From an uncultured Candidatus Saccharibacteria bacterium (lineage in GTDB: Bacteria; Patescibacteriota; UBA1384; 2-12-FULL-50-11), in the NCBI GenBank assembly GCA_964358205.1, contig CAYHNZ010000001.1:3168-67167 (forward strand): 64,000 bases of DNA, written 5' to 3'. The position numbers and the translations under genes are program-made. Below the pieces are notes generated by a model. The model was not told the DNA's origin, made no database searches, and saw nothing but the letters and a program-made list of their open reading frames with translations. Positions 16,001-64,000 of the stretch are shown piece after piece (positions within the stretch are counted from its first letter, which is position 1; each line of letters opens with the position of its first letter).

Positions 16001-19000
16001 GGGACATTGCAATATACCGGCACGACCTCGTCGACTGACCGCAGCATTACGACGACCGCGGCGATCACTTTAAATCTTGATATTACAAATCCTGCCGCAG
16101 CGCTAACCATTTCGGGGACGACGACTGTAACGACTGCGCCGTTCACGAAAGTTGGACCAGGGACACTGATCTTGTCGGGCACGAACGGTCATACGGGGCT
16201 AACCACGGTCCTGGCTGGGACGCTAAAAGAGGGCGTCGCCAGTGCACTCTCAACGGGAGCGTTAACTGTTACGAACGGGACATTCGATCTCAATAACTTC
16301 TCGGATAGTGTCGGGACAACCACTCTTACTAACGGTGGGCAGATGATCGATTCCGGCGGTACGACCGCGGTTTTGACTAGTACAGCAACTTACGCATTGC
16401 AAAGCGGTAAGATCAGCGCCCGACTGGGTAGCGCCGTTGCTGCCGGTATCTCTAAAACGACAACGGATCGGGTTATTCTTTCCGGCGACAATACGTTTAC
16501 CAGCACCTCTATAGCCTTGAGTGCCGGCGCCCTGAACCTTCAAAGCAACAACGCGCTCGGCGCTGCCGGTACGACCTTAACGACCACCATTACCTCGGGC
16601 GCGGCTCTGGAAACCCAAAATAATATTACGATTCCCAGCACCAAGCCAATTACGGCTAACTTGGGCGGCGTTAACAACAGTGGCGCAATTAGGAATATCG
16701 CCGATGCCAATACGATTCAAGCCAACATCGTGCTTGGTGTGACCAACACTCGGGTGAACTCGGACAGCGGCACCCTCACCTTCCCAACCGTCTCCGGTAA
16801 CACCAACAATTTAATTGTGGGCGGCGCCGGCAATACGACAGTTACCGGTATTATTAGCACTACATCTGGCACCTTAACCAAAGACGGTGCAGGCACATTG
16901 ACGCTTCAAGGCAATAACAGTTATACGGGTCTGACAACGATCAGCGCCGGTGTCGTGAATGTTCGGCATGCCGCAGGTCTTGGCACAATTGCGGCCGGTA
17001 CCTCCGTCGCCGCTGGCGCGGCCCTGCAAATACAAGGGATCGTCACCGTTGGCGCCGAAACGTTAACGCTCAATGGCACGGGCGTTGCCAGCGACGGAGC
17101 GTTAAGAAATATCACCAACAATAATACTTATCAGGGTAATATTACTCTCAATACTACCAGTTCGATTGGCTCCGATGCCAACACGCTCACTCTAAGCGGA
17201 ACAATAACTGGCGGTGCATCCATTGGCTTAACTAAAGTTGGTGCCGGCGAGGTGTCAGCTTCCAATACGGTCACGGTTGGTGGCGACCTAACGATTTCAG
17301 CGGGAACCTTAACTGCCTCCAGCAACACCATTACGGTTAGCGGTAACTGGTCTAATAGCGGCACATTTACGGCCGGCGCGAGTACGGTGGTATTAAATGG
17401 GGGCGCCACCCAGACTTTATCCGGAACCATGACCACCACCAGCGCATTTAACAACCTAACCGTGACTAACGCCTTCGGTACCAACGCCTCGGACTGCGAA
17501 CGAACCAGCTTTGTGGCCTCGATCGATTTCGATGCTGCGGCCACGGTGACAACAAACCTAGTCTTTACGACCGCCAGTACCAGGGTGGAATTCAACAGCG
17601 GGTCAACCTATGCTTTTACCAACATCAACTGGAACGGTCAGGCATCAGGTACGAAAATTTACTTCCGCAACTCGGACGCTTCCGGTACCTGGTTATTAAA
17701 AGTCACCGGCACCCAAACTGCGGTCTCGTTTATTAATGTCTCCCGCTCCGACGCATCGGTCGTCGGCGGTAACGCCATTGTCGCCAACGACGGCACCAAC
17801 ACCGATTGCACCAATAACACCAACTGGACATTCCCGAGTAGCAATACTGCCCCAAATGCGCCAACTAGCTTGGCCCAAAAGCGCACAACCGATGTGGCGC
17901 TCGCCACCGGTGATTGGACCAATGAAACATCCGTTAAGTTTACGGCAACCGCCAGCGACACCGATAATCCCGACACACTGAAGCTCTGTATTGAAGCAAT
18001 TGCGATTGCCAGCAATTTTACTAACACCGACACCGGCTGTGGAAGCTTAACCGCCTATAGCGGTACACCAATCACTGTTACCGTCACCTTGTCTGGCCTA
18101 GTTACCAGTACCGAGTACAAATGGCAGGCGAGAATCAAGGACACGGCTGATGCCGCTTCGGCCTGGAGCGATTACGCCGCCAATGGGTCTAGTCGCGATT
18201 TTGGTGTTGATACAACCGCTTGTACGACCGCCACCGTTTACGATGGCAGTTCCGCTGGTGTAGATGCCGACTTTAACGATAGCTCGCTAACGGCGCTATC
18301 AGGCAACTGGGATGCTTTTACTTGTACTGTTTCGGGTCTGCAGAAGTATGAGTACTCAATCGGCGTGACCGCCGGCGGTACGACAATCAAGGGCTGGACC
18401 GATAACTCGACGACAGCATCGGTCACCGCCGGTAGCTTGATTTTACACACTAATGAGCTCTATTTCATTAACATCCGAGCGACCGACAACGCCAGCAACG
18501 TTTCGTCAGTGGTGTCGTCTAATGGCCAACAGGTTTTACCGTCGTTAAGTTTTACTATGGGCAGTAACACGATTAGCTTTACTAATTTAAATAGCACCAA
18601 CAACCGACTCGACACTAAAACCGTTAGTCTAACCACCAGCACTAATGCTTTCGGCGGTTATATTATTCGCCAGTACGCCGGTGGCTTACTAACCGACGGT
18701 ACCAATACCATACCGATGTTCTCGGCTGGCTCGTACGCCGCACCAGCTTCGTGGGGGACAGGGTTTTGCTCGGGTACAACTTGTGGTTACGGCTATACAT
18801 CTAACGACACAACTATCCAAGGCAGCAACTTATTTAGTAGTGGCACGCTTTATGCCCCCTTTAGCCAAACTCCTTCTGGCGATATTGTGGCCGATCACAC
18901 CGCCGCCGTTGACGGTACGAGCGGTGCAGTTAGCAACGAGTCGTTCACTATTACCCATAAAGTCGCCGTAACCGCTCTACAAGCGGCCAAAACCTATCAA

Positions 19001-19036
19001 GCAACAGTCTACTTGATTGTCACTGGCACTTTTTAA
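7043..19036 (+). CDS. Giant (3,997 aa) cell-surface repeat protein: N-terminal TM/signal anchor, >30 autotransporter-associated beta-strand (PATR-like) repeats 'TxTGxTxVNxGTLxLG', C-terminal Ig/FN3-like region
   Basis: Single uninterrupted ORF; repeated units such as 'NTYTGLTTVNAGTLTYGV', 'NSYTGLTTISAGVVNV', 'NPYTGATTINTGTLTL' throughout. Confidence 0.85.
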   Translation: MAPQIQRARRRFDGVYQATRGKILCEYNLHPVRFFSVFFSVVVLLGVIAFFKPVSASIGLHLDQRELQNKYPNFWTLAEQKKISPSSDKYFIGDEPVVPSSSPVVLAVASDSTNIEVTADSAHEDIGQNPNQFTKSVSVEQVERGTKISQKETDGQAGLYRIKAQDRVTGAVTAEETIAWGVLAFNPDYSIYPTDTSATLAMAVLDDRGKMICDASLTIEITDPNGNKKILSTENELVLVNNACLIYGPTSEPDYIANYQTGTEGDYQVTIKARVGSGVRTLHDKFSVKDNQPFYLQRVGATRTFPNAEYVYKLNFQPKVDGQYQLTETVPAEFIISDTSAKITEVGDVKKLVWQVDAKAKADQTLMFGYKGPLKSPHLYTFGPAEVSYVADARSSSITQSQQSASRKLQAESWTEPRAWQIASDAPSTVNWDGSSSANWSDGANWSTNAIPQAGDNLVFPAGAANKSNSNDLGENMLFNSITFNDSGYTLAGNTIIVGQGLNGITDAVVSGGNTISLNLRVDVTRWLTVTNSGETLTISGTIAGVGGITKEGQGKLVLSGANTYGGVTKINGGDISARSNTALGTIATGTEVVGEAALELQGTIAIGREPLTLRGYGESSGGALKNVSDSNSFDGLITIAGIAEIQSDSGTLTLNGGVTGAAIPLVLDGAGNITFAKAPVANTSGLITKNGAGTLTYNFPNTYTGLTTVNAGTLTYGVDNAILSGGITVNGGTVDIATFSDMVGTVTLGTLAGGSGIITGSTGVLSSASYVVYVGTISAIIAGDGGTLAKSTPGTVTLTRPNLFSGATTVTVGTLKIQDSLALGVIDGITTVSAGATLQVDGTGLSIPEFITISGVGLLNQGVIWNSTGSNTVTGLVTMAAASTIKADVSTTITYATNGFTGAFGLTVNGDGDTTISGPIATTSGTLSKNGPGTLTLTAFNPYTGATTINTGTLTLNSNGAITMSASIAINSNGKLIADNSSVVTDRIGDAVAVSMNGGSWDFYGSSSTNTLATAGTLTMTGGKNAITVFAGTGGYTIMRFASFSRTAGARGLFRGASLGATPAANVATILFTTAPTLLGDDGVAGTSAVSIMQGVFGDNSTSGTGTDMVTYGRGNNNGLRLLNGAGFSNEYTTNFLTTNANIKISSATAAITSQINSLILDSGASITNPGSAQTITFMSGNILNLEASGSIAGANTTLAAGAVEFSISTPQSLTISSLITTTGGLTKGGTGTLTFSTAKTYTGLTSVNDGTLIYGINDAISSGAVTVNDATLDIATFTDTVGAVVVQGGTITGTSGVLTATSYDLRAATINAILAGSGTLTVVNTNERTDAVTTLSRDNTFTGSIALTSGVLKLGGAGGGSNTPLGTTAAGITMTSGAMLDLNGYTLVTSEAISATGTGIALQGAIINSSASTVTYNGVITQTAAARIGANYGKIIIGTGGITGTFNLTLGGFGDIDVTSAITISTGTITKDGFGIYTPSSASSTYTGLTTVSAGTLKLGVSGGATNTPLGTNAGGVTVTAGATLDMNGFSLATVADTLTINGTGSGTGDFAAGALVNSSGTGVTYVGAIVLGSATTVKSNSGTITLTTGGITGAFALTLGGTASSTISGVIATAAGTIIKIDTGTWTLSSVNTYTGAATIYQGTIKNGIAAAAGGGPLGTAAGATTIFSGGVLDMNGFSLSALAEGLTINGFGIESGGAMVNNSGSGVTYLGTRALGSDTRTTNSGAGLLTLSGIQSGAFESRYGGAGNITISVAIAATASSFWKDGAGTVILSAANGHTGVTTVAAGTLQYGILNTLAAGAVVVNGGTLNIVSFSDTVGAVTLVDGMISGTTGILTATGYTFESGTISGIIAGAVAVNKYTAGTVVISGVETISSTLTIHAGTIEISGSGSAVGVTAITINLGATLTLDNSTTAVASRLLDTIVLTMNGGNFNYKGNTASTAAETIGQLLFSSGHNTVTVTPGAGGSTTLTAATNPGINRTAGATVLFRGTSLGSTPAANISTLKFTTAPIVVGGGGGTGTTTISIIKGAYGDNSLTGTGTDMVTHNVGNTNGLRLLNGPGFSGEYAANLGTASANVKLTGDTAATTTNTNSIVLNGGGVTNASVTLPIAATALAGNILIATAHNIAGANTVLGITTFELNVLANAASTVSATVGTATTGSLTLSGSGNVTFSAANPYTGTTFINNATYTYGVANAISSGAATVIGGTYNLNGNSDTIGALNATGGTIATGAGTLTLGGTVTTVANANVTSIITGNLALGANRIFNVGDGLVDNDLVVSATVTGAFTVTKSTGTGVLVLSATDSTYSGSTTISTGTFRFGSGGSGANGPLGTTAAATIISSGASLDLNGYSLATAEGLTISGTGVGANGAIMNTSSAAATYQGLIILGAAATITSNYGDITISNTGSMTGTGFALTLRGAGNGSIATQVNTSTGGSRVKNGLGTWTVSGDGGYTGVTTITLGVLKLGAAGGATNTPLGTTGTNTTIASGAMLDLNGFTLGTAEPLSIQGTGIANAGAITTSSGIATSYSGAITIATASRITNYGNGTFSLSGAIAGGAVALTTVNAPGTITQTSASVWSGTTSSLTKEGWGTTILAGQNSITGSMTVSSGTLQLGANGGAANTPTGTIAGGVIVSAGAVFDLSTFVLGGASTWEPLTLNGSGIKNGGALISAATSGNNFGVVTYGSSARVVNNASGTITFVGAPTGTFNYVFGGTGPITITGVMPAVAITITKYDSGILLLNGAHLSTGLIRINGGTVRYGVANAILVNAVTIAGGTLDINGQTDAVGAIILMSGTITNGGAAATLTGTAYTFYGGAITAVLAGTAIAMAKNTGATLTINQALTNTGTLTINAGTVQYLASNVVANTAAVIVAGGTLDIGAQTDTVAAVTLTSGAITGSTGILTGTSYAVASGTISAILAGAVTLAKTTAGTVTLSGVNTYSGVTTISGGVLSVGTIGNGGVAGNLGAAPAAASNIVSNTGTGTLQYTGTTSSTDRSITTTAAITLNLDITNPAAALTISGTTTVTTAPFTKVGPGTLILSGTNGHTGLTTVLAGTLKEGVASALSTGALTVTNGTFDLNNFSDSVGTTTLTNGGQMIDSGGTTAVLTSTATYALQSGKISARLGSAVAAGISKTTTDRVILSGDNTFTSTSIALSAGALNLQSNNALGAAGTTLTTTITSGAALETQNNITIPSTKPITANLGGVNNSGAIRNIADANTIQANIVLGVTNTRVNSDSGTLTFPTVSGNTNNLIVGGAGNTTVTGIISTTSGTLTKDGAGTLTLQGNNSYTGLTTISAGVVNVRHAAGLGTIAAGTSVAAGAALQIQGIVTVGAETLTLNGTGVASDGALRNITNNNTYQGNITLNTTSSIGSDANTLTLSGTITGGASIGLTKVGAGEVSASNTVTVGGDLTISAGTLTASSNTITVSGNWSNSGTFTAGASTVVLNGGATQTLSGTMTTTSAFNNLTVTNAFGTNASDCERTSFVASIDFDAAATVTTNLVFTTASTRVEFNSGSTYAFTNINWNGQASGTKIYFRNSDASGTWLLKVTGTQTAVSFINVSRSDASVVGGNAIVANDGTNTDCTNNTNWTFPSSNTAPNAPTSLAQKRTTDVALATGDWTNETSVKFTATASDTDNPDTLKLCIEAIAIASNFTNTDTGCGSLTAYSGTPITVTVTLSGLVTSTEYKWQARIKDTADAASAWSDYAANGSSRDFGVDTTACTTATVYDGSSAGVDADFNDSSLTALSGNWDAFTCTVSGLQKYEYSIGVTAGGTTIKGWTDNSTTASVTAGSLILHTNELYFINIRATDNASNVSSVVSSNGQQVLPSLSFTMGSNTISFTNLNSTNNRLDTKTVSLTTSTNAFGGYIIRQYAGGLLTDGTNTIPMFSAGSYAAPASWGTGFCSGTTCGYGYTSNDTTIQGSNLFSSGTLYAPFSQTPSGDIVADHTAAVDGTSGAVSNESFTITHKVAVTALQAAKTYQATVYLIVTGTF

Positions 19037-53786: not shown

Positions 53787-54608
53787 CTATTTTATAAGAC
53801 GGCCAATTACGCAGGCCTCTTGCCCGATTTCGGTATTTGGTCGAGGGAAAATTATGTACTCGCCCTCTCTGGCTACATATTTAATCTCGCCATCAGTGGC
53901 AAAGATCTTGCCCGTTTCGAGTTTATCGAAGTTTTGGTACTCCTTGTCGAACGCGAATCGAGAGCTAGTTTTTTTAATAAAACGGTCCACGTTAATGTGT
54001 AGCCGACTCCTAAGTGTATCTTCGGGAAGTGAAGCGATGATACCGAAATAGCCCAAAAACTGCAGGATGGTTTTTTCGGCCAAGCCGATATATTTTTCTG
54101 GGTAGAAATTGGACCCACATTCGGCGCAGATGGCTATTTTATTCTGCGCGTGCATATATCCGTCGGTCCCGCCTGGTTCTGATACAGACCAACCAGAGGA
54201 AATGATCTCAAAATTAAATTTGCAGGCTAAATCAAACGACTCTTTCTCGCAGATAAGGAATGGTCGATCTTCCGGACCGTTGTAACCATGTAGATCTAGT
54301 AATGCGTCGCAGCCGTCGAGTAGTTTCATCAGCTCTCGAGCCAAGCCGTCCTCATAGACGGCTCCAGTATTTCCATTAATGAAACAACGATTGAGATTTT
54401 TTTCGGTAAAACGAACGTTCTGCTCGACAGCTTTAGGGTTAGCAATGACGAAATGAACAGTACCCGCATCAATTCGCAGGGCTCCTATTAGTTTCGTGAC
54501 AGCCAGTACGCCTGCTGGCTCATTCCCATGGATACCAGCAAAAACGGCAACGGTTCGGCCAGGTAGTTTTCCACGAACCGTCGTAATCTCAGGATTCATA
54601 GTACGCAT
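53787..54608 (-). CDS. Succinylglutamate desuccinylase/aspartoacylase (AstE/AspA, M14-like) family zinc deacylase
   Basis: 'TVAVFAGIHGNEPAGVLAV...DLHG' zinc-ligand motifs of AstE/AspA family; 273 aa. Confidence 0.6.
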   Translation of the reverse strand: MRTMNPEITTVRGKLPGRTVAVFAGIHGNEPAGVLAVTKLIGALRIDAGTVHFVIANPKAVEQNVRFTEKNLNRCFINGNTGAVYEDGLARELMKLLDGCDALLDLHGYNGPEDRPFLICEKESFDLACKFNFEIISSGWSVSEPGGTDGYMHAQNKIAICAECGSNFYPEKYIGLAEKTILQFLGYFGIIASLPEDTLRSRLHINVDRFIKKTSSRFAFDKEYQNFDKLETGKIFATDGEIKYVAREGEYIIFPRPNTEIGQEACVIGRLIK

Positions 54609-56655: not shown

Positions 56656-57789
56656 TCATTTACCTGGCAGGCTGTCAATAGTCACAGACCCCAATTTCTC
56701 GGCGACTAATTCCCAGGGGTTAGTAAAGCGGTGATTGCCAACACATTTTTGGAGCTCCCGAAAATTTTCAAAGTTACACTCGCTTTTTAGATAGTCGCCC
56801 AGATCTTTGTTGGTGCTACTTATATAGGCCAGAGTTTGTTTGCAAGAAACAGACTCCGCAAAGGCTTTTCTGAATTCACTCTCATTTTGGCAGTTGTCCT
56901 TTAGGATGATTGAACCCAGGATCAAATCTCGAGTCAGAGACGGCGGGCCGAGATTACCAGTTGCAATAATAGAATCGACACTGGAGGCTTTCTCCATTTT
57001 CTCAAGCAGAGAATCTCTGATCTCTAGGTCTTCTTCATCTTGAGAGACAATGGTTTGGTTGAGGGCTTTAATTACATCGTAGGAGGATGAGTGTTTCTCC
57101 TCCATCTCTTCTTCTTCGATGACTGAAAAAACTTTTTCGGCGATCTTTTCGGCAGTGGTGAAACCCATAAAGGCAGTGAGAATTGCCAGCTCATTATAGG
57201 TGTAATCGCCGTTTTCCCCACCATCGGAAGTGACGACTTTCACTCCGTCCAAGCTCTTTTTCGTAAAACTATCTTGGAAAATCGCGAGACCAGGCTTAAT
57301 TTCGGAAACCTTGTGGTTATTATCGCCGAAGGATCGAGAGAGCAGGGTTAACAAGATCGTGCATATGCCCGCATACGAGGCTTTGTAAAATAGGGGTAGA
57401 TTGCTAAGTTTCTCCCCGTGACTAAATGGTACATTCATTCCCATTCCACCAGACCCGGTTGTTCCAACCTGAATATAGTGAACTTCCTTCAACTTTTTCA
57501 GAACTGGATAGAGGCCTACGTGAAATTTGGTGATGTCAGTTAGATTGTCGTGTGATTTGCGGAAAAATATCGTGGCGATATTTAAGCAGTTGACGATCAC
57601 ATTTGGAGTGATTTTATCGACTATTTCTGCTAAGCTGTCGAGATTTAAAACATCAAGTTGTATGGAATCAATATCTTGTGAGCTGAACTTCTTAAGATCA
57701 GCTCCGGTTACCTCGTAACCTTTTTCCAATCCAATCTCGCAAATCTTTCTGCCAACAGATCCCGCTCCACCCAAGACCAGTATTTTCAT
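56656..57789 (-). CDS. NAD(P)-binding Rossmann-fold dehydrogenase (saccharopine-dehydrogenase-like)
   Basis: 'MKILVLGGAGSVGRKICE' N-terminal GxGxxG; 377 aa. Confidence 0.4.
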   Translation of the reverse strand: MKILVLGGAGSVGRKICEIGLEKGYEVTGADLKKFSSQDIDSIQLDVLNLDSLAEIVDKITPNVIVNCLNIATIFFRKSHDNLTDITKFHVGLYPVLKKLKEVHYIQVGTTGSGGMGMNVPFSHGEKLSNLPLFYKASYAGICTILLTLLSRSFGDNNHKVSEIKPGLAIFQDSFTKKSLDGVKVVTSDGGENGDYTYNELAILTAFMGFTTAEKIAEKVFSVIEEEEMEEKHSSSYDVIKALNQTIVSQDEEDLEIRDSLLEKMEKASSVDSIIATGNLGPPSLTRDLILGSIILKDNCQNESEFRKAFAESVSCKQTLAYISSTNKDLGDYLKSECNFENFRELQKCVGNHRFTNPWELVAEKLGSVTIDSLPGK

Positions 57790-57842
57790 CGGCCTAATTG
57801 TACATCTTGTTAGATAGGGGTAAAAATAATAAAGTCAAGGTA

Positions 57843-59312
57843 ATGAAACTAAAGACCATTACGGGGGAAGCAAAGATTCAAACCCATGAGACCGAGGGGA
57901 TAATTCCCGGGTTTCAACATGCTTTGACTTTATTCAAGCAAGCGTCAATCAATGTCCCGGCATATAAGGCTTTTTTGAAAAGTCACGGAGTGGATCCTAA
58001 AAAAATCAACACTCCAACTGACTTTTCCCGACTCCCCATAATTACCAAGGAGAATTACCTAAAGAAGTATCCGCTACAGGAATTGATGTGGCAGAGAGGA
58101 GTTAGCGACGCTCGGATGATATCGGCTAGTTCAGGGTCGAGCGGACAACCGTTTTTTTGGCCAAGAGGCAATCAAAGCGTTGAAGACTCGGTCGTGATAC
58201 TGGACGAGCTGTTAGACAAGACCTTTCAGACCAAAACCAAAGAGACACTGTGTATCAACGCCTTTGCCATGGGGACATGGATTGCCGGTACTTATATGAA
58301 TTCGGCAATGTGGCGATTGGCTGATTTAGGGCATCGGATAGTCACCATTACGCCCGGAATTACCAAAGAGGAAATTGCTCGCGAACTTGAAGTGTTGGGA
58401 CCAACTTTTCAGCAGGTTCTAATTATGGGTTATCCACCTTTCGTCAAAGATGTCGTCGATTATGCGAAAACCCGTAATATTAAACTCGCTCGACTCGATA
58501 TAAAGTGCTTATTGGCCGGTGAGAACTTTTCCGAGCAATGGCGAGACTACATTCTAGCGAGGATTGGCAAGAAGAACCAACCAGAATCAACTCTGGGGAT
58601 GTATGGAACTGCGGATGCGGGAATAGTTGGTACAGAAACACCCTTATCGATATTTATCAGAAGACTCTCTGCCGATGACCGCCGACTGTACGAAGCTCTT
58701 TTCGGTAACGACTCTATTTTGCCAACTCTGGTTCAATACAATCCCGATCTTCGTTATGCAGAAGAGATCGACGGTAAAATCATCTTCACAACCGACAACT
58801 CCTTGCCCCTGATAAGATATGAGATATTAGACGAAGGCAGAGTCTTGACACCGAGTATGGTTAATAACGTACTTGGCCGGTTTGGAAAGAGAATCCCAGC
58901 TGAAATGAAACCATTTTCTGACAACCCATACATTGCCCTCTATGGAAGACAGGATGTGGCGGCGACATTCTACGCCCTAAATATTTATCCAGAGAATGTT
59001 AAATATGGGCTAGAGATTCCAGCTCTTCAAGCAATTGTGACGGGGAAATTCGTCATTAAGGCCGAATTCGACGACACAACACAAACGCAGGCGTTAGACT
59101 TAAGTGTCGAGCTCCAGCCGGGAGTAAAACCAGACCAAAAGATCGAGAGGAAAATATTTAAAGCGGTTGTCGACAGTTTAGTGCAGAACAACAGCGAATA
59201 CAGCAAGTTATACCAGGAGATTGGCAAGAAGGCGGAGCCGATCGTGCATCTGATGGAGCAAGGGAATCCGGATTTCAAGCCAGGAATTAAGCACCGTTGG
59301 TTTAAGAAATGA
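57843..59312 (+). CDS. Adenylate-forming enzyme of the PaaK / coenzyme F390 synthetase-like family
   Basis: 'SASSGSSGQPFFWPR' (cf. PaaK SSGTTGKP); ~490 aa; start set at 57843 because 57798 would sit 8 nt from divergent gene start. Confidence 0.55.
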   Translation: MKLKTITGEAKIQTHETEGIIPGFQHALTLFKQASINVPAYKAFLKSHGVDPKKINTPTDFSRLPIITKENYLKKYPLQELMWQRGVSDARMISASSGSSGQPFFWPRGNQSVEDSVVILDELLDKTFQTKTKETLCINAFAMGTWIAGTYMNSAMWRLADLGHRIVTITPGITKEEIARELEVLGPTFQQVLIMGYPPFVKDVVDYAKTRNIKLARLDIKCLLAGENFSEQWRDYILARIGKKNQPESTLGMYGTADAGIVGTETPLSIFIRRLSADDRRLYEALFGNDSILPTLVQYNPDLRYAEEIDGKIIFTTDNSLPLIRYEILDEGRVLTPSMVNNVLGRFGKRIPAEMKPFSDNPYIALYGRQDVAATFYALNIYPENVKYGLEIPALQAIVTGKFVIKAEFDDTTQTQALDLSVELQPGVKPDQKIERKIFKAVVDSLVQNNSEYSKLYQEIGKKAEPIVHLMEQGNPDFKPGIKHRWFKK

Positions 59313-59338
59313 ACGAGGAATACGAGCCGATATTCTTC
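59268..59338 (+). repeat. Direct repeat DR1 (~71 nt) spanning the 3' end of the adenylate-forming gene and a 10-codon relic 'MNEEYEPIFF*' of the E1-like gene start
   Basis: ~88% identical to 60593-60663. Confidence 0.8.
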
Positions 59339-59350
59339 TAAATAAAACGA

Positions 59351-59920
59351 ATGAATAAGCCTCAATTACAAATAATTAATTCCAAAGTTTACAATAATAC
59401 TATCCGCCTCTGGCTGGGTCGAGACGATTATTTAAGTCACGACGAGCTCGATGAGTATTGCGTCGCGCTCAAGACAGAGTGGAACAAGGGCGGCGATACA
59501 TTTATAGAGTTAATGATAAAGTGCTTGGGATGGCCGTGGGCTGAAGATGTAGTTAAATGTTATGTCACCGGCACTCGAGCCAGCTTTTCTAGTCCGTTGA
59601 CCGTCGGGTACAAGAAAAATATTAATTTAGCGCTGAATGTATTAACTCACGAGCTTATCCATTGCTATATCAGTCAGCACATTCCCGAGCTTCGGAAGAA
59701 AATTGACGATTTCTACGCTGAATATTCGAACGAAAATCGATTGACCCAAAATCATATTATGGTTCATGCTATTCACGAATATATTTACCGTAACACAAGC
59801 AGAGTTGAAGAATTGGAAGCAGATATTAAGAGTTGCCAGTCAGCACCAGACTACGCCAAATCTTGGGAGATTGTTGGTCGAGTCGGCTATCAAGAGGTTG
59901 TAAAGAAAATAGCCCGCTGA
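59351..59920 (+). CDS. Hypothetical protein with HExxH motif ('LTHELIHCY'), possible metallopeptidase-like
   Basis: ORF; motif only. Confidence 0.3.
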   Translation: MNKPQLQIINSKVYNNTIRLWLGRDDYLSHDELDEYCVALKTEWNKGGDTFIELMIKCLGWPWAEDVVKCYVTGTRASFSSPLTVGYKKNINLALNVLTHELIHCYISQHIPELRKKIDDFYAEYSNENRLTQNHIMVHAIHEYIYRNTSRVEELEADIKSCQSAPDYAKSWEIVGRVGYQEVVKKIAR

Positions 59921-59964
59921 GATTTTGGTCTCAAGGGGCTAAGGGTGTTCGGAGCGGGTTGTTG

Positions 59965-60441
59965 CTACGCTCCCGTGCAACGACTGGTGCAACCGCCTTC
60001 GCCGCTACCACCGTCACCGCCGCATTCGCTGGGAGTGCTACAGTCACCGGCCTTGCCTTGTGGCCAGTAGATTGGATTCAGTTTGCCGAAGCGTAGGCGG
60101 AGTGCGGTCAGAGTCCGTTTGTAAGCGGACTTAGCTGGTTCATCGCTCGGAGAGTGGTGGATGAACTGGCTGAAGTGTTGCGTACAGAACTTGGCGTATT
60201 CCTGCGTGTGGAGGACGAAGCTGTGCCACATCTCGTCAATGATGAGAGATGGCGCATGTGTCTTGTCGGGCTTTTCAGCACAAACGATGAGGAATTTCTT
60301 GCACTCCTCGAACTGCTGGCGTGCTTCTGGTTCGGAAACTTCATATTTCCGACAAAAGTTCATGATGAGTAGGGGAGGAGGTTGATAAGCCATCACCTCC
60401 TCTGCGTTGACGATGTTAACGGTGCTTAATACAGTAGCCAT
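59965..60441 (-). CDS. Hypothetical protein with structured N-terminal domain and Cys/Gly-rich C-terminal tail (CSTPSECGGDGGSGEGGCTSRCTGA)
   Basis: ORF; tail composition. Confidence 0.35.
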   Translation of the reverse strand: MATVLSTVNIVNAEEVMAYQPPPLLIMNFCRKYEVSEPEARQQFEECKKFLIVCAEKPDKTHAPSLIIDEMWHSFVLHTQEYAKFCTQHFSQFIHHSPSDEPAKSAYKRTLTALRLRFGKLNPIYWPQGKAGDCSTPSECGGDGGSGEGGCTSRCTGA

Positions 60442-60592
60442 TTAGGTATCCTCGTATTTTTTCTCAAAGAAGGATCCTTGAGAAGCTCAAGATACAACTT
60501 TATTAATTCATAATCAATAGTTTAACCCCAAGTCAGCCATTTTATGCTAGTCTAAAGGCAAGATGTCGTCATTTCTAAAGGAAATTCTCTTC

Positions 60593-60663
60593 CCGGATTT
60601 TAAGCCAGGAGTTAAGCATCGTTGGTTTAAGCGATGAACGAGGAATATGAGCCGAGATTTTTT
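60593..60663 (+). repeat. Direct repeat DR2: relic 3' end of an adenylate-forming gene ('...FPDFKPGVKHRWFKR*') fused to the true start of the E1-like gene
   Basis: Aligns to 59268-59338 with ~8 mismatches. Confidence 0.8.
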
Positions 60664-61797
60664 CAGTCTCGTGAACATTCTGATGTCAAGGAGCTTATTA
60701 AGGAAGGAAAAATTCGTGAGGTTATTGATAATCTTTCAGAAGAGCTGGAGAATCTATTTCGCATAAACTTTCCCTTCATAACCCCCGCTACCCCAGAGTA
60801 CATCACTACTTTTCAGAAGTTTCTCGGTAGATATCTGAACGGGAAGAAAGAAGCTGAGGTTGGGGTTTGGGCTTACTATCCTTGGAAGCAAACTTTGGTT
60901 CACTTACCCGAAAGTGCAGACTTCTTTAAACTAAGAACTTCCAGAAACAAATTTTTAATAAATAATGAAGAACAGCAGAAGTTCTATAGCTCAAAGATAG
61001 GTATAGCTGGTCTCAGTGTTGGACTCGCAGCCGTAAACTCACTCGTGTTATCAGGCGGTGGTGGGCAAATGAGAATCGCGGATTTTGATAATCTATCCAT
61101 TACAAATTTGAATAGATTGCACTCATCGGTATGTGATTTGAACAGAAGTAAAGCAGCTATTGCCGCAAGAAAGGTTTACGAAATAAATCCTTTTCAAGTT
61201 CTCGAAGTCTTCCGGGATGGAATAACAACAAAGAACATAAGCAAGTTTTTTGGGAGGGGGAGTGATAAACTCGACATTTTTATTGAGGAGATAGATGATA
61301 TTAAGCTGAAAATAGACACGCGAATCTGGGCTAGAAAACTAAAGATACCTGTCGTTATGGCTACAGACAACGGAGATAATGCAATCATTGATGTGGAAAG
61401 ATTTGATTTGGAGCCTAATCGGAAGTTGTTTCACGGTAGAATTGAGGAATCAAAGCTCCTAAGCGTTGGGGAGAACCTTGGAATGACGGAGAGAATAAGG
61501 CTAGCTAGCGCAATCGTTGGAGCAGATATTACTCCGAGGACACGCATGTCGCTCACTATGGTGGGAACAAAAATACCAGCATGGCCCCAGTTAGGCAATG
61601 CAGCAACCCTCTCTGGTGTGGCGGTGAGCTACGTTTCAAGAAGAATACTTACGGGGTTAAGTATGCCCTCTGGTAGGTATGAAGTATCGCTTGACGAGAA
61701 ACTTGATCCCACCTACTTCAGAGGTTCATCTGTACAAGAGAGGGAAATAGACAGAAAAGAGTTCATTTTTACGCTTGGTAAAATATTCGGGAGTTAA
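60634..61797 (+). CDS. E1-like ThiF/MoeB-family adenylyltransferase with ~110-aa N-terminal extension
   Basis: 'KIGIAGLSVGLAAVNSLVLSGGGGQMRIADFDNLSITNLNRL' (GxGxxG + DxDx5NLNRQ-like). Confidence 0.7.
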   Translation: MNEEYEPRFFQSREHSDVKELIKEGKIREVIDNLSEELENLFRINFPFITPATPEYITTFQKFLGRYLNGKKEAEVGVWAYYPWKQTLVHLPESADFFKLRTSRNKFLINNEEQQKFYSSKIGIAGLSVGLAAVNSLVLSGGGGQMRIADFDNLSITNLNRLHSSVCDLNRSKAAIAARKVYEINPFQVLEVFRDGITTKNISKFFGRGSDKLDIFIEEIDDIKLKIDTRIWARKLKIPVVMATDNGDNAIIDVERFDLEPNRKLFHGRIEESKLLSVGENLGMTERIRLASAIVGADITPRTRMSLTMVGTKIPAWPQLGNAATLSGVAVSYVSRRILTGLSMPSGRYEVSLDEKLDPTYFRGSSVQEREIDRKEFIFTLGKIFGS

Positions 61798-61803
61798 TAA
61801 AAG

Positions 61804-62820
61804 ATGTCAATTATAAATCCCTGGTTGATCGAAGAGAAGGATTTCGCAGCGGCTAAAGATCTTAGGAGCCAGATAAACTTCTGGTTGAAATACGCCGTAT
61901 TAGCGGCATCTGCGCACAATACCCAACCTTGGGGCTGTATCTTTAGAGACAACTCCCTAATTGTATATAGGGACGAAGATCGAACTCTTGGAAGCGATCA
62001 AACTACTAGATTGGCTCATATAGGTATAGGAGCGTTTATCGAAAATCTATCCATCGCATCAAAAAGCTGGGGGTATGAACCCAAAATACACATTACTGCT
62101 TTCTATCCTAATGAGTTAGAGATAGCTCATATTTCATTCGAGAAGGCCGTAGAAACTACAGGGAGAGATGATCTCGAGTTGTTCAAAGCAATAACCTCTA
62201 GACACACCAACAGGGGTCTCTATGTGCCAGGAAAGCTAGATGAATCCCTACTAAATAAAATTGCAACTGACAAAGAAGGTACCGCCAAATCTTTTGTAAT
62301 TACTGAGGAAAGTGGGAGAAAACGGATCGGAGAGCTGGTAGCAAAAGGCACCGACATAGCGCTATCGCTGCCCTTTATGAAAAGAGAGTTGGCAAGTTTT
62401 ATTTATTCCTCAAGCAAGCCTAGGGAAATAGGAATGCCAATAGAGTCAATGATTCCGGGTCAACTCAAGAACTTTATAAGACCAGAAACTGCAATAAAAT
62501 ATATGAATCCCGAATCGCTTGCTAGGGAAAATTTGAAAAAATATTCCCAAGCCCCCGCATTAGTAATAGTGGGAACTTATGAGGATGACCCTACGGCATG
62601 GATTGATGCGGGCAGACTCATGCAACGAACCTTACTTAGAGCAGCTGCAAAGGGCTACAGCCATGATATAGCAGCGGGACCTATTGAGATACCTACACTC
62701 CTTCCCATTCTCAGACAAGAGATACAACCCGATACAAGGCCTCAATTACTATTCAGAATCGGTCGAGCCGAAAAGTCTTCGTTATCAGTTAGCTCTGGTA
62801 GGAAAGCCGTAATAGTTTAA
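61804..62820 (+). CDS. Nitroreductase-family protein with tandem/extended nitroreductase fold (SagB-type dehydrogenase-like)
   Basis: 'AASAHNTQPW' nitroreductase signature; second half 'TSRHTNRGLYV'; 338 aa. Confidence 0.55.
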   Translation: MSIINPWLIEEKDFAAAKDLRSQINFWLKYAVLAASAHNTQPWGCIFRDNSLIVYRDEDRTLGSDQTTRLAHIGIGAFIENLSIASKSWGYEPKIHITAFYPNELEIAHISFEKAVETTGRDDLELFKAITSRHTNRGLYVPGKLDESLLNKIATDKEGTAKSFVITEESGRKRIGELVAKGTDIALSLPFMKRELASFIYSSSKPREIGMPIESMIPGQLKNFIRPETAIKYMNPESLARENLKKYSQAPALVIVGTYEDDPTAWIDAGRLMQRTLLRAAAKGYSHDIAAGPIEIPTLLPILRQEIQPDTRPQLLFRIGRAEKSSLSVSSGRKAVIV

Positions 62821-62871: not shown

Positions 62872-64000
62872 ATGGAGCTTGTTGTCTTAACTCTCTCAAC
62901 CTTGGCTAACTTGGTAGTAGGGACATTTATCTTAGTGAAGGATAGAGGGAGCCATACGAATCGTTTTTTCTGGGCATTTACGGTTTTTTCCGCTATCTGG
63001 GGAGTGTCTAACTACTTTTCTCTGCACCAAACAAATCCTGAGGCAAGTCTTGGATCAATCAGGATCGTGATGTTCTTCGCTGTTTACTATTCGCTTACTC
63101 TATTTTTAACAATACACACCTTCCCCTCAAGAACTATTTTATTGAAACGGTGGTTGTTTATTATCATAACTCTCGGGAGTGTATTTGTATCAATCTTAAC
63201 TCAAACATCATTGATATTTTCCGGTATAGAAGGCTCTGGATCGAACGCAGCGCCCATTGCCGGTCCGGGGATATTCCTATTTGCTCTAACAACTGGTTCA
63301 TTAATACTATCGTCAATAATTCTGTTGGTTACGCGATATATCAAATCTCGCGACACTCTAAGGGCTCAACTCAAGATGCTATTAATCGGAGTGACTGGAA
63401 GTGCGCTACTCATATTCTTGAGCAATTTTCTGCTCGTAGTTGTGTTTAAATTTAATCTCTTGTTAAATTTTGGGCCGTCGTTTACGTTGATTTTCATTAT
63501 TGCAACCGCTTACGCGATCACCCAACATGGTTTGTTTAATGTTAAGGTCGTTGTAGCAGAAATCGGTGCTGCGGCAATAGTGTTAGTGAACTTCACGCAA
63601 CTCTTTGGCTCAGAGGGAGTTGCAGATTTAGTATTCAGGTTGATTATTTTTGGGATGGTAACTATCTTCGGCTTTCTACTCGTCAGATCTGTCCAAAACG
63701 AGGTCTCCCGTCGTGAGGAAGTCGAGATTTTGGCCAAGGAGAAGACGGCGGCGTTGGGGGAGGTTGAGGAGCGCAACAAGAATCTAGCGACACTGCAGAG
63801 GATTTCCGACATCGTGTTGAACGAAAGTGAGATGCGACCGATGACCCAGAAGATTCTCGATGAGATTCCCAAACAACTGGAATCGTGCGCTGGGGCACTA
63901 CTGTCCGTCGTCAAGGATAGTCAGCTAGTGGCTTACGGCCTGTCGGAGCATCAGTTTGCTCATAAGATCCTGTCGTTGGTCGGTGGAGACTTGGAAAAAT
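62872..64000 (+). CDS. Partial (3'-truncated by window) polytopic membrane sensor protein: ~7 TM helices then coiled-coil and GAF-like start, probably the N-terminus of a sensor histidine kinase
   Basis: Frame from ATG 62872 is open to window end (manually translated); not in ORF track because no stop. Confidence 0.5.
   Translation, partial: MELVVLTLSTLANLVVGTFILVKDRGSHTNRFFWAFTVFSAIWGVSNYFSLHQTNPEASLGSIRIVMFFAVYYSLTLFLTIHTFPSRTILLKRWLFIIITLGSVFVSILTQTSLIFSGIEGSGSNAAPIAGPGIFLFALTTGSLILSSIILLVTRYIKSRDTLRAQLKMLLIGVTGSALLIFLSNFLLVVVFKFNLLLNFGPSFTLIFIIATAYAITQHGLFNVKVVVAEIGAAAIVLVNFTQLFGSEGVADLVFRLIIFGMVTIFGFLLVRSVQNEVSRREEVEILAKEKTAALGEVEERNKNLATLQRISDIVLNESEMRPMTQKILDEIPKQLESCAGALLSVVKDSQLVAYGLSEHQFAHKILSLVGGDLEK

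What the first reader, a model, noticed from the sequence alone, without database searches (positions are those of the whole stretch)
56656..62820. Candidate peptide/small-molecule modification cluster: PaaK/F390-synthetase-like adenylating enzyme + E1-like ThiF + tandem nitroreductase + dehydrogenase, with an inserted HExxH protein and a Cys/Gly-tailed protein
E1-like adenylyltransferases paired with SagB-type nitroreductase-fold dehydrogenases are hallmarks of peptide or cofactor modification pathways such as TOMM-type azoline oxidation and thiocarboxylate chemistry. Here they are translationally coupled to a PaaK-family acyl-adenylate-forming enzyme (ATGA overlap) and lie beside a Rossmann dehydrogenase. 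The 158-aa protein ending CSTPSECGGDGGSGEGGCTSRCTGA is a conceivable substrate or precursor. No YcaO or radical SAM gene is present in the window, so if this is a biosynthetic system it is not a canonical TOMM cluster.
Basis: partly seen in the sequence, partly recalled or inferred. Interest (0 to 1): 0.7.

Follow-up and report, generated by a model that had tools for sequence, protein, structure and literature searches.

The report
Ligase-primed oxazolone-type pathway in groundwater bacterium
The genes are a real, widely conserved small-molecule pathway related to the recently discovered bacterial oxazolone synthases, but started by an ATP-using ligase instead of the usual acyltransferase, wired to a membrane sensor kinase, and here split by a two-gene insertion.

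Summary
All six genes exist as described. The core is conserved: a distant PaaK-like adenylate-forming enzyme (57843-59312), a ThiF-like enzyme (60634-61797) and an Acg-type flavin oxidoreductase (61804-62820). The ThiF gene aligns end to end with the cyclase domain of Rv1355c/TrzS. That enzyme makes N-acyl tryptazolones, a class of oxazolones (JBC 2025).

In 80 genomes carrying the PaaK-like gene, the ThiF gene is adjacent in 74. These genomes are Patescibacteria, Nocardia/Gordonia/Streptomyces, Gammaproteobacteria MAGs and others. In 63 of 66 co-oriented loci the two genes overlap or lie within 20 nt, and 33 show the ATGA-type 4-nt overlap.

The HExxH and Cys/Gly-tailed genes are a foreign 1.1-kb cassette, flanked by a 70-nt duplication of the ligase/ThiF junction. 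They occur in no other locus of this kind, so the 158-aa protein is not a precursor.

The usual N-acyltransferase is not detected. No conserved small ORF and no SagB match were found, and no YcaO lies in the 17.5 kb annotated around the cluster.

Accessory parts are a dedicated reductase (56656-57789) and a 7TM histidine kinase (from 62872).

Best reading: a CoA-independent variant of oxazolone biosynthesis, possibly a signal. This is a new variant of a known kind, with no biochemical test.

The parts
56656..57789 (-). Accessory NAD(P)-dependent reductase: SDR-type Rossmann fold plus a C-terminal domain that Pfam calls PF27054 'Beta_methylindole_red_C'. Divergent from the ligase gene.
57843..59312 (+). 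PaaK-like (ANL superfamily) adenylate-forming enzyme, 489 aa; an alternative TTG start lies at 57798. Proposed to make the N-acyl amino acid substrate.
   Evidence: NCBIfam PaaK 1.4e-12, far below the cut-off. Profile against PDB PaaK 3.6e-11. AF2 pLDDT 85 and Foldseek PaaK1/2 4e-20, followed by BT_0428, ClxA, 2-HIB-CoA ligase and GH3. Invariant P-loop SSGSSG, YGTADAG and C-terminal Lys. Family of at least 3191 proteins.
59268..59337 (.). Left copy of a 70-nt direct repeat: the 3' end of the ligase gene plus a relic of the first 10 ThiF codons (MNEEYEPIFF*, 59309-59341).
   Evidence: the repeat finder family D1, 89% identity, spacing 1325 nt. Alignment. Sequence read directly. The uninterrupted junction is seen in L088.
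59351..59920 (+). HExxH protein, 189 aa. First gene of an inserted cassette, not part of the conserved system.
   Evidence: No family in Pfam, NCBIfam or PADLOC. Only 9 homologues found. Absent from all other PaaK-like loci. Found with the UCP gene in an unrelated context in L089 and alone in L090.
59965..60441 (-). UCP032817-like protein, 158 aa, with a Cys/Gly-rich tail. Second gene of the inserted cassette, not a precursor for this pathway.
   Evidence: Precomputed PF27765. 5371 cluster representatives at E <= 1e-3, with Cys-rich tails general in the family. Cassette DNA is 78% identical to L089 626-1759.
60563..60637 (+). 24-codon relic ORF ending ...PDFKPGVKHRWFKR*. Its last 14 codons duplicate the ligase C-terminus, and its TGA overlaps the ThiF ATG (ATGA).
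   Evidence: Read by eye from the sequence shown, not run through translate or the ORF listing. Right copy of the 70-nt repeat at 60593-60662.
60634..61797 (+). ThiF-like ATP-dependent enzyme of the Rv1355c/TrzS (oxazolone cyclase) type, stand-alone, 387 aa.
   Evidence: NF005901 7.1e-92, covering model positions 9-341 of 722. 36% identity over 363 aa, E 2e-61, to an annotated 710-aa Rv1355c-family fusion, including the N-terminal extension. Best solved relatives are TcdA, 4.7e-9, with the nucleotide-binding motifs and the ...EEIDD Asp aligned. NJ tree places it in a clade of ligase-linked ThiFs sister to the fused type.
61804..62820 (+). Monomeric tandem nitroreductase-fold FMN oxidoreductase of the Acg/FDO group, 338 aa. 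Proposed C-alpha/C-beta desaturase.
   Evidence: NF047509 Acg family 7.1e-58, 196.6 bits against a cut-off of 199. Also matches the C-half of NF005901, 4.6e-18. MsAcg 2YMV 4.6e-11 with the HNTQPW motif conserved. Only 21% identity to the FDO domain of a Rhodococcus Rv1355c-family protein.
62872..64000 (+). Start of a 779-aa 7TM-receptor histidine kinase (HisKA_7TM-HisKA-HATPase) that runs off the window. It is the conserved downstream neighbour of the module.
   Evidence: Full gene on L001, 12239-14578, with Pfam domains. Homologous kinases lie within 7 kb of the module in 37 of 80 genome loci, 37 of the 44 non-actinobacterial ones. Gaps are 0-100 nt in about 27 of the 41 loci that have such a kinase.

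Best explanation
The conserved unit is ligase - ThiF - flavin oxidase, with a reductase and a 7TM histidine kinase as accessories. It is a variant of the oxazolone biosynthetic pathway (OxzAB / TyzACB / TrzAS).

Proposed steps:
1. Inferred. The PaaK-like enzyme adenylates a carboxylic acid and joins it to the amino group of an amino acid, giving an N-acyl amino acid without acyl-CoA. It thereby replaces the N-acyltransferase of the known pathways. The acid may be a 2-oxo or 2-hydroxy acid derived from an amino acid. The SDR would supply it in this locus, and a Leu/Trp-type amino-acid dehydrogenase would do so in other loci.
2. By homology to an experimentally characterised enzyme. The ThiF protein adenylates the carboxylate of that N-acyl amino acid, and the amide oxygen closes the ring to a 5(4H)-oxazolone.
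3. By family-level homology. The Acg-type FMN enzyme desaturates C-alpha/C-beta to give the conjugated oxazolone.
4. Inferred from gene linkage only. The product, or the pathway's expression, is tied to the adjacent 7TM histidine kinase and response regulator.

In this particular genome, a 1.1-kb two-gene cassette (HExxH + UCP032817-like) has been inserted exactly at the ligase/ThiF junction, duplicating 70 nt of it. Those two genes are passengers.
For: Homology to the characterised cyclase:
- The ThiF gene matches the Rv1355c family model at 7e-92.
- It aligns end to end (36% identity, E 2e-61) with a fused Rv1355c-family protein.
- Rv1355c is TrzS, shown in vitro to cyclise N-acyl-Trp with ATP and desaturate it with O2 and FMN (PMC12856293). 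TyzB/TyzC and OxzB do the same (PMC10404671; bioRxiv 10.1101/2020.06.11.147165).
- The nearest solved relative is TcdA, itself an oxazolone-forming dehydratase (PMC12596934).

Flavoenzyme: it belongs to the same FDO/Acg group.

Ligase: it has the full set of ANL core motifs and a PaaK fold.

Linkage:
- Ligase and ThiF are adjacent in 74 of 80 genome loci across at least 4 phyla.
- 63 of 66 co-oriented pairs overlap or lie within 20 nt.
- The three genes stay linked in several different gene orders.

Absences:
- No homologue of a candidate TrzA, or of a GNAT domain fused to ThiF, in the window or in any locus.
- No acyltransferase among the Pfam-annotated neighbours.
- No conserved small ORF across lineages.

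Accessories:
- The SDR family is always next to the module.
- An ELFV amino-acid dehydrogenase sits beside the ligase gene in 11 other loci (in most of them between the oxidase and the ligase) and never together with the SDR.
- The kinase is adjacent in most non-actinobacterial loci.

Insertion: shown by the 70-nt repeat and by cassette homology elsewhere.
Against: - Nothing here is biochemical. The acceptor of the ligase is unknown, and it could be a genuine CoA ligase.
- The ligase-linked ThiFs form a clade sister to the characterised fused type, not inside it (NJ bootstrap 88/100, few fused sequences), so the chemistry may have diverged.
- The flavoenzyme is only 21% identical to the FDO domain of an annotated Rv1355c-family fusion, itself uncharacterised. 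It fits the Acg model best, and Acg's own function is unknown.
- 44 of 80 loci have no detectable flavoenzyme nearby, including almost all Nocardia/Gordonia loci, so desaturation is not obligatory.
- From general knowledge: many Patescibacteria are thought to be anaerobic, whereas the known desaturases need O2.
- The link of the SDR to indolepyruvate-type reductases rests only on the name of a precomputed Pfam hit that I could not verify.
- The TrzA probe used is a candidate identified by position only.
- In this window the operon is interrupted, and expression of ThiF and the oxidase is unknown.
Confidence: 0.5

Rival explanations
1. Classical oxazolone pathway with an unlinked acyltransferase. 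The PaaK-like enzyme is a true acyl-CoA ligase that only supplies an unusual acyl-CoA (aryl-acetyl, 2-hydroxyacyl). An N-acyltransferase encoded elsewhere makes the N-acyl amino acid for ThiF and the oxidase.
For: The closest solved folds are CoA ligases: PaaK1/2, BT_0428 and 2-hydroxyisobutyryl-CoA ligase. Nocardia, Gordonia and Rhodococcus are reported to carry trzA/tyzA-type genes elsewhere (PMC12856293).
Against: No acyltransferase lies in any of about 90 loci examined, whereas in all described systems it is adjacent. PaaK-fold enzymes that couple without CoA exist; ClxA is among the fold hits. Stop/start overlap with ThiF suggests stoichiometric co-production.
Confidence: 0.2
2. A different heterocycle. 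The ligase joins two amino-acid-derived units (a dipeptide or depsipeptide). ThiF activates the C-terminal carboxylate for closure to a six-membered ring (diketopiperazine or morpholinedione) or another ring. The flavoenzyme acts like a cyclic-dipeptide oxidase.
For: The ligase-linked ThiFs are a separate clade from the characterised cyclases. Amino-acid dehydrogenase or 2-oxo-acid reductase accessories point to amino-acid-derived building blocks. From my own knowledge, nitroreductase-fold enzymes desaturating diketopiperazines are known (AlbA).
Against: There is no direct evidence. The nearest characterised ThiF relatives, TrzS and TcdA, both make oxazolone rings.
Confidence: 0.12
3. One reading: a RiPP-like or protein C-terminal modification system (TOMM-like azoline oxidation or thiocarboxylate formation), with the 158-aa Cys/Gly-tailed protein as substrate.
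For: E1-like enzymes do adenylate peptide and protein C-termini (MccB, PaaA, ThiF/MoeB; review PMC12596934). The tail is Cys/Gly-rich.
Against: The 158-aa gene is part of an inserted cassette that is absent from all other loci and present in an unrelated context. Its Cys-rich tail is a general feature of a family with 5371 cluster representatives. No small ORF is conserved across lineages. No SagB or YcaO hit was found among the cluster proteins or the annotated 17.5 kb. ThiF/MoeB models score far below their cut-offs.
Confidence: 0.04
4. A redox or stress module rather than biosynthesis. The Acg-like flavoprotein and kinase form a sensing pair analogous to the DosR-regulon Acg proteins, and the two adenylating enzymes repair or salvage a metabolite.
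For: Acg-family proteins of M. tuberculosis belong to the hypoxia regulon and their function is unknown (PMC10404671). The kinase is tightly linked, and several relatives carry GAF domains.
Against: The most constant pair is ligase + ThiF, not oxidase + kinase. Actinobacterial loci lack both the oxidase and this kinase type.
Confidence: 0.08

Closest known systems
TrzAS (Rv1356c-Rv1355c) N-acyl tryptazolone pathway of M. tuberculosis, M. smegmatis and R. jostii RHA1 (Kleetz et al., JBC 2025, PMC12856293)
   Same: The ThiF-type ATP-dependent cyclase has the same domain layout, including the roughly 100-aa N-terminal extension (36% identity, E 2e-61 to an annotated family member; NF005901 7e-92). 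It is partnered with a monomeric tandem nitroreductase-fold FMN oxidase. Regulatory or signalling genes lie next door: c-di-GMP genes there, a histidine kinase here.
   Different: Cyclase and oxidase are separate genes here. The oxidase is only about 21% identical and fits the Acg model better. The acyl-CoA N-acyltransferase TrzA is not detected, and a PaaK-like ligase is translationally coupled instead. The ThiF clade is sister, not identical. The hosts are mostly Patescibacteria.
OxzAB (Pseudoalteromonas rubra; de Rond et al., 2020 preprint 10.1101/2020.06.11.147165) and TyzACB (M. tuberculosis; Grigg et al. 2023, PMC10404671)
   Same: Same logic: make an N-acyl aromatic amino acid, then ThiF cyclisation and FDO desaturation. 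TyzB and TyzC are also separate genes.
   Different: Both start with an N-acyltransferase that uses acyl-CoA. None of the papers read mentions an adenylate-forming ligase partner.
Indolmycin enzymes Ind2 (NADH ketone reductase of 3-methyl-indolepyruvate) and Ind3 (ATP-dependent coupling that yields an oxazolinone) (PMC8246080)
   Same: A 2-oxo-acid reductase next to an ATP-dependent coupling enzyme, leading to a five-membered O,N-heterocycle. The SDR carries the Pfam domain named Beta_methylindole_red_C.
   Different: Homology to Ind2 rests on a precomputed Pfam label only. Homology of the ligase to Ind3 could not be tested because no sequence was available. That Ind3 is PaaK-like is my recollection. 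Indolmycin biosynthesis has no ThiF or FDO.
PaaK phenylacetate-CoA ligase and other PaaK-fold enzymes (BT_0428, ClxA, 2-hydroxyisobutyryl-CoA ligase)
   Same: Same two-domain ANL fold and core motifs (Foldseek E 4e-20, TM 0.62-0.64; profile 3.6e-11).
   Different: 16-18% identity. NCBIfam PaaK scores 47 bits against a cut-off of 646-700. No Pfam AMP-binding hit. No paa catabolic genes nearby. A distinctive SSGSSGxPFxWPR P-loop.
TcdA (tRNA t6A dehydratase)
   Same: Best solved sequence relative of the ThiF protein (4.7e-9). It forms an oxazolone ring by carboxylate adenylation (PMC12596934).
   Different: TcdA acts on tRNA. It lacks the N- and C-terminal extensions. NF011696 scores 48 bits against a cut-off of 304.
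TOMM clusters (SagBCD / McbBCD)
   Same: An E1-like protein together with a nitroreductase-fold FMN dehydrogenase.
   Different: No YcaO in the annotated 17.5 kb. The flavoenzyme is not SagB-type. No precursor peptide.

Membership tests
Oxazolone synthase systems (OxzAB / TyzACB / TrzAS) | ThiF-like ATP-dependent cyclase of the TrzS/TyzB/OxzB type | tested here: met
   NF005901 'Rv1355c family' 7.1e-92, 309 bits over model positions 9-341; the next ThiF model scores 64 bits. 36% identity, E 2e-61, end to end against an annotated fusion. Caveats: the full-length cut-off of 476 bits is not reached because the gene is split, and the clade is sister to the fused type.
Oxazolone synthase systems (OxzAB / TyzACB / TrzAS) | Flavin-dependent oxidase (monomeric tandem nitroreductase fold) fused or adjacent to the cyclase | tested here: met
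   The gene starts 6 nt after ThiF. Acg-family model 196.6 bits against a cut-off of 199; C-half of NF005901 4.6e-18. MsAcg 4.6e-11. Only 21% identity to the FDO domain of an annotated Rv1355c-family fusion.
Oxazolone synthase systems (OxzAB / TyzACB / TrzAS) | Adjacent acyl-CoA-dependent amino-acid N-acyltransferase (OxzA/TyzA/TrzA) | tested here: not met
   No acyltransferase among the Pfam-annotated neighbours. A candidate TrzA from Rhodococcus plasmids and a GNAT-ThiF N-domain find nothing in the window or in any locus at E <= 0.01. The probe's identity as TrzA is inferred from position.
Oxazolone synthase systems (OxzAB / TyzACB / TrzAS) | Product is an N-acyl 4-alkylidene-oxazol-5-one | not testable with these tools
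   Needs expression and LC-MS.
TOMM (thiazole/oxazole-modified microcin) clusters | YcaO cyclodehydratase | tested here: not met
   None among the called genes of the 17.5-kb contig stretch around the cluster or in relatives' loci. The whole 64-kb window was not scanned exhaustively.
TOMM (thiazole/oxazole-modified microcin) clusters | SagB-type dehydrogenase and a precursor peptide | tested here: not met
   No SagB model among the NCBIfam hits at E <= 0.01. No small ORF conserved across lineages. The 158-aa protein is a cassette passenger.
ThiF/MoeB sulfur-carrier adenylyltransferases | Equivalog-level match and a ThiS/MoaD-type partner | tested here: not met
   ThiF and MoeB models score 25-50 bits against cut-offs of 150-650. 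No ubiquitin-like small gene is conserved nearby.
PaaK phenylacetate-CoA ligase | Equivalog-level sequence match and a paa catabolic context | tested here: not met
   46.9 and 46.5 bits against cut-offs of 700 and 646. The fold is shared. No paa genes in any locus.
Indolmycin-type Ind2/Ind3 pair | Ind2-like reductase domain (PF27054) | tested here: inconclusive
   The hit is precomputed in the protein database, but the model is absent from the local Pfam copy. No paper or structure confirms the link.
Indolmycin-type Ind2/Ind3 pair | Ligase homologous to Ind3 | not tested
Anti-phage E1/E2-type systems (CBASS Cap2, Bil and similar) | Match to PADLOC E1-E2 models with E2/JAB partners | tested here: not met
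   Only 14-18-bit partial hits, E 1e-4 to 3e-3. No partner genes.

The most novel reading that the evidence does not exclude
The ligase-ThiF-oxidase genes make a diffusible oxazolone-type (or related azlactone) signal entirely from amino-acid-derived acids and ATP. This suits CoA- and lipid-poor Patescibacteria. The invariably adjacent 7TM histidine kinase would be its receptor, giving an autoinducer synthase/receptor pair in ultrasmall episymbiotic bacteria. The same synthase genes occur in Nocardia and Gordonia, with the actinobacterial ThiFs nested inside the Patescibacteria diversity. That would fit gene exchange or chemical cross-talk between episymbionts and actinobacterial hosts.
Probability: 0.15. 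Interest if true: 0.85.

Novelty: new variant of a known kind. Interest (0 to 1): 0.6.

Why it matters
Enzymatic oxazolone formation by ThiF/FDO pairs was first reported only in 2020-21. All three described pathways start from acyl-CoA through an N-acyltransferase.

A conserved alternative would add three things:
- a new entry route into this chemistry, using an adenylate-forming ligase, present in at least 74 species-level genomes across several phyla;
- a rare, testable secondary-metabolite or signalling pathway for Patescibacteria, organisms usually described as biosynthetically minimal;
- through its tight linkage to a 7TM histidine kinase, a handle on the unresolved question of what oxazolones are for.

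It also assigns a likely role to a family of more than 3000 'phenylacetate-CoA ligase family' proteins, and to a small reductase family that has none.

Tried and rejected
- PADLOC scan: only weak E1-E2 partial hits, so the defence-system reading was dropped.
- Rfam on the whole window: two tRNAs only.
- Promoter/terminator scan of the cluster: at chance level.
- Housekeeping ThiF/MoeB and true PaaK: rejected on model scores.
- Literature searches for 'methylindole reductase' and 'methylindole-3-pyruvate': no papers.
- The indolmycin PNAS paper (PMC4352800) is not held, so the Ind2/Ind3 analogy stays a lead.
- The afdb50 fold library was unavailable.
- tblastn of the SDR against plasmids: nothing. 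For the ligase, only two unannotated hits.
- The ELFV dehydrogenase's best NCBIfam model was ScyB tryptophan dehydrogenase. PDB comparison shows it is equally close to leucine dehydrogenases, so I do not claim tryptophan specificity.
- Search for a conserved small ORF (precursor peptide): only within-genus artefacts.
- Looked for the upstream window genes (AstE/AspA-like, 139-aa, 226-aa and others) in other loci: none conserved.
- Cluster look-up gave no names or organism for the window proteins.

Full report
WHAT IS THERE.
- Rossmann protein, 56656-57789 (-).
- PaaK-like protein, 57843-59312 (+); a TTG at 57798 is an alternative start, and gene callers on identical contigs use the ATG.
- HExxH protein, 59351-59920 (+).
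- 158-aa protein with a Cys/Gly tail, 59965-60441 (-).
- ThiF-family protein, 60634-61797 (+).
- Nitroreductase-fold protein, 61804-62820 (+).

A 7TM histidine kinase starts 51 nt later at 62872 and runs off the window. Contigs encoding identical proteins come from Hainich groundwater metagenomes, including 0.1-um filtrates. The window is ordinary chromosome, carrying DnaE, GluRS, HisRS/IleRS, a P-type ATPase and a 3997-aa repeat protein. The nearest relatives of the cluster proteins in species-level genomes are Berkelbacteria and Saccharibacteria. The organism is therefore probably a member of the Patescibacteria; this is an inference.

FAMILY ASSIGNMENTS.
- ThiF. It matches the NCBIfam model for the 'Rv1355c family' at 7e-92 over model positions 9-341 of 722, against 64 bits or less for every other ThiF, MoeB or TcdA model. 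It aligns end to end with the N-terminal half of an annotated 710-aa Rv1355c-family fusion from a Rhodococcus plasmid. The match is 36% identity over 363 residues, E 2e-61, and includes the roughly 100-residue N-terminal extension and the GxGxxG / DFDxLxxxNLNR block. Its best solved relatives are TcdA dehydratases, with the nucleotide-binding motifs and the catalytic-site Asp (EEIDD) aligned.
- Nitroreductase-fold protein. It matches the Acg-family FMN oxidoreductase model over nearly its full length (7e-58, 196.6 bits against a cut-off of 199). It matches the C-terminal half of the Rv1355c model more weakly (4.6e-18). It also matches M. smegmatis Acg (2YMV, 4.6e-11), with the HNTQPW motif conserved. 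It is only 21% identical to the oxidase domain of the Rhodococcus fusion.
- PaaK-like protein. It has no Pfam hit. It is a distant PaaK relative by NCBIfam (1.4e-12, 47 bits against a cut-off of 700) and by profile against the PDB (3.6e-11). By predicted structure (pLDDT 85) the best Foldseek matches are PaaK1/2 at 4e-20. These are followed by BT_0428, ClxA, 2-hydroxyisobutyryl-CoA ligase and, further off, GH3 amido synthetases. The ANL core motifs are invariant in the family: P-loop SSGSSG, YGTADAG and a C-terminal Lys.
- Rossmann protein. It has an SDR/epimerase-type N-terminus and a C-terminal domain recorded in the database as PF27054 'Beta_methylindole_red_C'. Its model (pLDDT 87) resembles generic SDR carbonyl reductases only.

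WHAT IS KNOWN ABOUT THE RELATIVES. Rv1355c is TrzS. [quoted passage not shown] It converts N-acyl-tryptophan, made by the acyl-CoA N-acyltransferase TrzA (Rv1356c), into N-acyl tryptazolone by ATP-dependent cyclisation followed by O2-dependent desaturation (PMC12856293). TyzA/TyzB/TyzC of M. tuberculosis and OxzA/OxzB of Pseudoalteromonas rubra do the same with Tyr or Phe (PMC10404671; bioRxiv 10.1101/2020.06.11.147165). In all three systems the first enzyme is an N-acyltransferase encoded next door. None of these papers, nor a 2025 review of ThiF-like enzymes (PMC12596934), mentions an adenylate-forming ligase partner. No held paper contains ThiF, nitroreductase and phenylacetate-CoA ligase together.

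CONSERVATION.
- The PaaK-like protein belongs to a family of at least 3191 proteins.
- A profile-guided scan of one genome per species returned 80 loci: 34 Patescibacteria, 36 Actinomycetota (mostly Nocardia and Gordonia, three Streptomyces), 6 MAGs labelled Gammaproteobacteria and 4 others.
- With HMMs built from the hits, the Rv1355c-type ThiF gene is adjacent in 74 of 80 loci. At least two of the six exceptions (L059, L065) end at or near the contig edge.
- The Acg-type oxidase is present in 36 of 80. That is 31 of the 44 non-actinobacterial loci, but only 5 of 36 actinobacterial ones.
- Gene order varies: ligase-ThiF-oxidase, oxidase-ThiF-ligase, ThiF-ligase-oxidase, and oxidase convergent. 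Linkage is kept throughout.
- Where the ligase precedes ThiF on the same strand (66 loci), 33 have a 4-nt ATGA/GTGA overlap, 10 another overlap, and 20 a gap of at most 20 nt. Called genes in four independent contigs confirm this.
- A 7TM-type histidine kinase lies within 7 kb in 37 of the 44 non-actinobacterial loci. The gap is 0-100 nt in about 27 of the 41 loci that have such a kinase, and a response regulator is present in 20.
- The PF27054 reductase is rarer: 64 homologues were found, all metagenomic. Every one whose context I examined sits divergently upstream of the ligase gene. That includes three members only 34-42% identical to the window protein.
- Eleven other loci carry a Leu/Trp-type ELFV amino-acid dehydrogenase beside the ligase gene, in most of them between the oxidase and the ligase. 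It never occurs together with the reductase. Its substrate cannot be assigned: leucine dehydrogenases at 2.9e-78 and tryptophan dehydrogenase at 7.4e-69 score similarly.

THE INSERTION.
- The window is one of only three co-oriented loci in which ligase and ThiF are far apart (1321 nt).
- A 70-nt direct repeat (59268-59337 and 60593-60662, 89% identical) brackets the HExxH and 158-aa genes.
- The repeat is the ligase-3'-end / ThiF-5'-start junction itself.
- After the real ligase stop there is a relic of the first ten ThiF codons (MNEEYEPIFF*, 59309-59341).
- Before the real ThiF start there is a 24-codon ORF (60563-60637), read by eye from the sequence. It ends with the last 14 residues of the ligase, and its TGA overlaps the ThiF ATG.
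- A 66%-identical relative (L088) has the uninterrupted junction, and both window copies align to it.
- The inserted DNA (59351 to about 60482) is 78% identical to a segment of another uncultured bacterium, where the same two genes sit between unrelated genes. The HExxH gene also occurs alone elsewhere.
- Neither gene occurs in any other ligase locus.
- The 158-aa protein belongs to a very large family: 5371 cluster representatives at E <= 1e-3. Cys-rich tails recur among the best hits (most of those inspected have at least 3 Cys in the last 30 residues) and 126 of the best 150 share a WHxxxLxTxxY-type core motif.
- These two genes are therefore passengers, and the 158-aa protein is not a dedicated substrate.

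ABSENCES.
- No acyltransferase is found among the annotated neighbours in any locus.
- On Rhodococcus plasmids the Rv1355c-family gene has a divergent 250-260-aa hypothetical gene and a GGDEF gene next to it, mirroring rv1356c and rv1354c. I used that protein as a candidate TrzA probe, together with the GNAT part of a Streptomyces GNAT-ThiF fusion. Neither has any homologue in the window or in any ligase locus.
- No small ORF is conserved beyond closely related Nocardia genomes.
- No SagB match was found, and no YcaO lies in the annotated stretch.
- PADLOC gives only marginal E1-E2 hits.

PHYLOGENY. In a neighbour-joining tree of 84 ThiF domains rooted on the GNAT-ThiF fusion, the 78 ligase-linked ThiFs form one clade (88/100 bootstraps). 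It is sister to the five fused Rv1355c-type domains (98/100). The Nocardia/Gordonia ligase-linked sequences form a single clade (100/100) nested among Patescibacteria sequences. This is a small, distance-based analysis without distant outgroups.

INTERPRETATION. The best-supported reading is a variant of oxazolone biosynthesis.
1. The PaaK-like enzyme, using ATP, makes the N-acyl amino acid that the acyltransferase makes in the known pathways.
2. ThiF cyclises it.
3. The Acg-type FDO desaturates it.

Step 2 rests on homology to an experimentally characterised enzyme. Step 3 rests on family-level homology. Step 1 is an inference from the tight coupling, the apparent absence of any acyltransferase and the known ability of ANL/PaaK-fold enzymes to form amides or esters directly. 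The two alternative accessories both act at C-2 of 2-oxo acids (2-oxo-acid-type reductase or amino-acid dehydrogenase). This suggests, weakly, that the acyl donor is a 2-oxo or 2-hydroxy acid derived from an amino acid, as in the Ind2/Ind3 steps of indolmycin biosynthesis (PMC8246080). That analogy is a lead, not a tested homology. The kinase linkage suggests regulation by, or sensing of, the product. The authors of the TrzAS work also raise a signalling role for oxazolones.

Against this reading:
- There is no biochemistry.
- The ThiF clade is sister to the characterised one.
- The oxidase is distant from the FDO domain of Rv1355c-family fusions.
- The oxidase is missing from most actinobacterial loci.
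- The known desaturases depend on O2.

I put the specific model at about 0.5. The broader statement, that this is a small-molecule pathway of the oxazolone-synthase kind rather than a peptide-modification or housekeeping system, I put at about 0.75.

VERDICT. The TOMM, thiocarboxylate and precursor interpretation is not supported. The cluster is a new variant of a recently described kind of pathway, in an unexpected group of organisms, and is interrupted here by a small two-gene cassette. Interest 0.6.

Noticed in passing
window 59338-60592: The HExxH and UCP032817-like genes behave as a 1.1-kb mobile two-gene cassette with no recombinase. It was inserted with a 70-nt target duplication that has since diverged to 89% identity. 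The same cassette (78% DNA identity) sits in an unrelated context in L089.
   Followed up: yes
window 59965-60441 (-): The UCP032817-like family is very large: 5371 representatives of 50%-identity clusters. Members are about 130-190 aa, with a WHxFxLxTxxY core, often a YWP motif near the C-terminus, and a Cys-rich C-terminal tail. Function unknown; the tail may bind metal.
   Followed up: partly
L034, L041, L050, L056, L059, L062, L072, L075, L080, L081, L082: A Leu/Trp-type ELFV amino-acid dehydrogenase sits beside the PaaK-like gene in 11 loci, in most of them between the oxidase and the ligase. It never occurs together with the PF27054 reductase, so the two look like alternative accessories.
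   Followed up: partly
L093 5167-8081 (Streptomyces sp. NBC_01431 plasmid); also hits H5, H6, H12: A 622-aa GNAT-ThiF fusion followed by a KAS III gene. This may be yet another architecture of the acyl-amino-acid/oxazolone theme, with the acyltransferase fused to the cyclase.
   Followed up: no
L007-L030, L066, L067, L084 (Nocardia loci): In Nocardia and Gordonia the ligase-ThiF pair lacks an adjacent oxidase. In 16 loci a roughly 1260-aa nSTAND-WD40 protein is conserved nearby (divergently upstream of the ligase gene in L084, the only Nocardia locus with called genes). LuxR-type HTH genes lie nearby in 17 loci.
   Followed up: no
ThiF tree: The actinobacterial ligase-linked ThiFs nest inside Patescibacteria diversity. 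This hints at horizontal transfer between Patescibacteria and Actinomycetota, which are known hosts of Saccharibacteria (my own knowledge).
   Followed up: partly
L087 9548-9775: In an 80%-identical relative of the ligase, from the same aquifer, the gene after the ligase is a classical SDR rather than ThiF; the contig ends there. The same junction may be insertion-prone.
   Followed up: no
window 53787-54608 (-): An AstE/AspA-family protein (succinylglutamate desuccinylase / aspartoacylase type, that is, an N-acyl-amino-acid deacylase-like enzyme) lies 2 kb from the cluster. It is not conserved in other loci.
   Followed up: partly
window 7043-19036 (+): A 3997-aa ORF with passenger-associated-transport (PATR) repeats. 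Its region has a higher G+C content (0.54-0.58) than its surroundings.
   Followed up: no
L001 14642-15375 (just beyond the window end): A PhD/YefM-PIN toxin-antitoxin pair and a FolC-like Mur ligase follow the histidine kinase.
   Followed up: no
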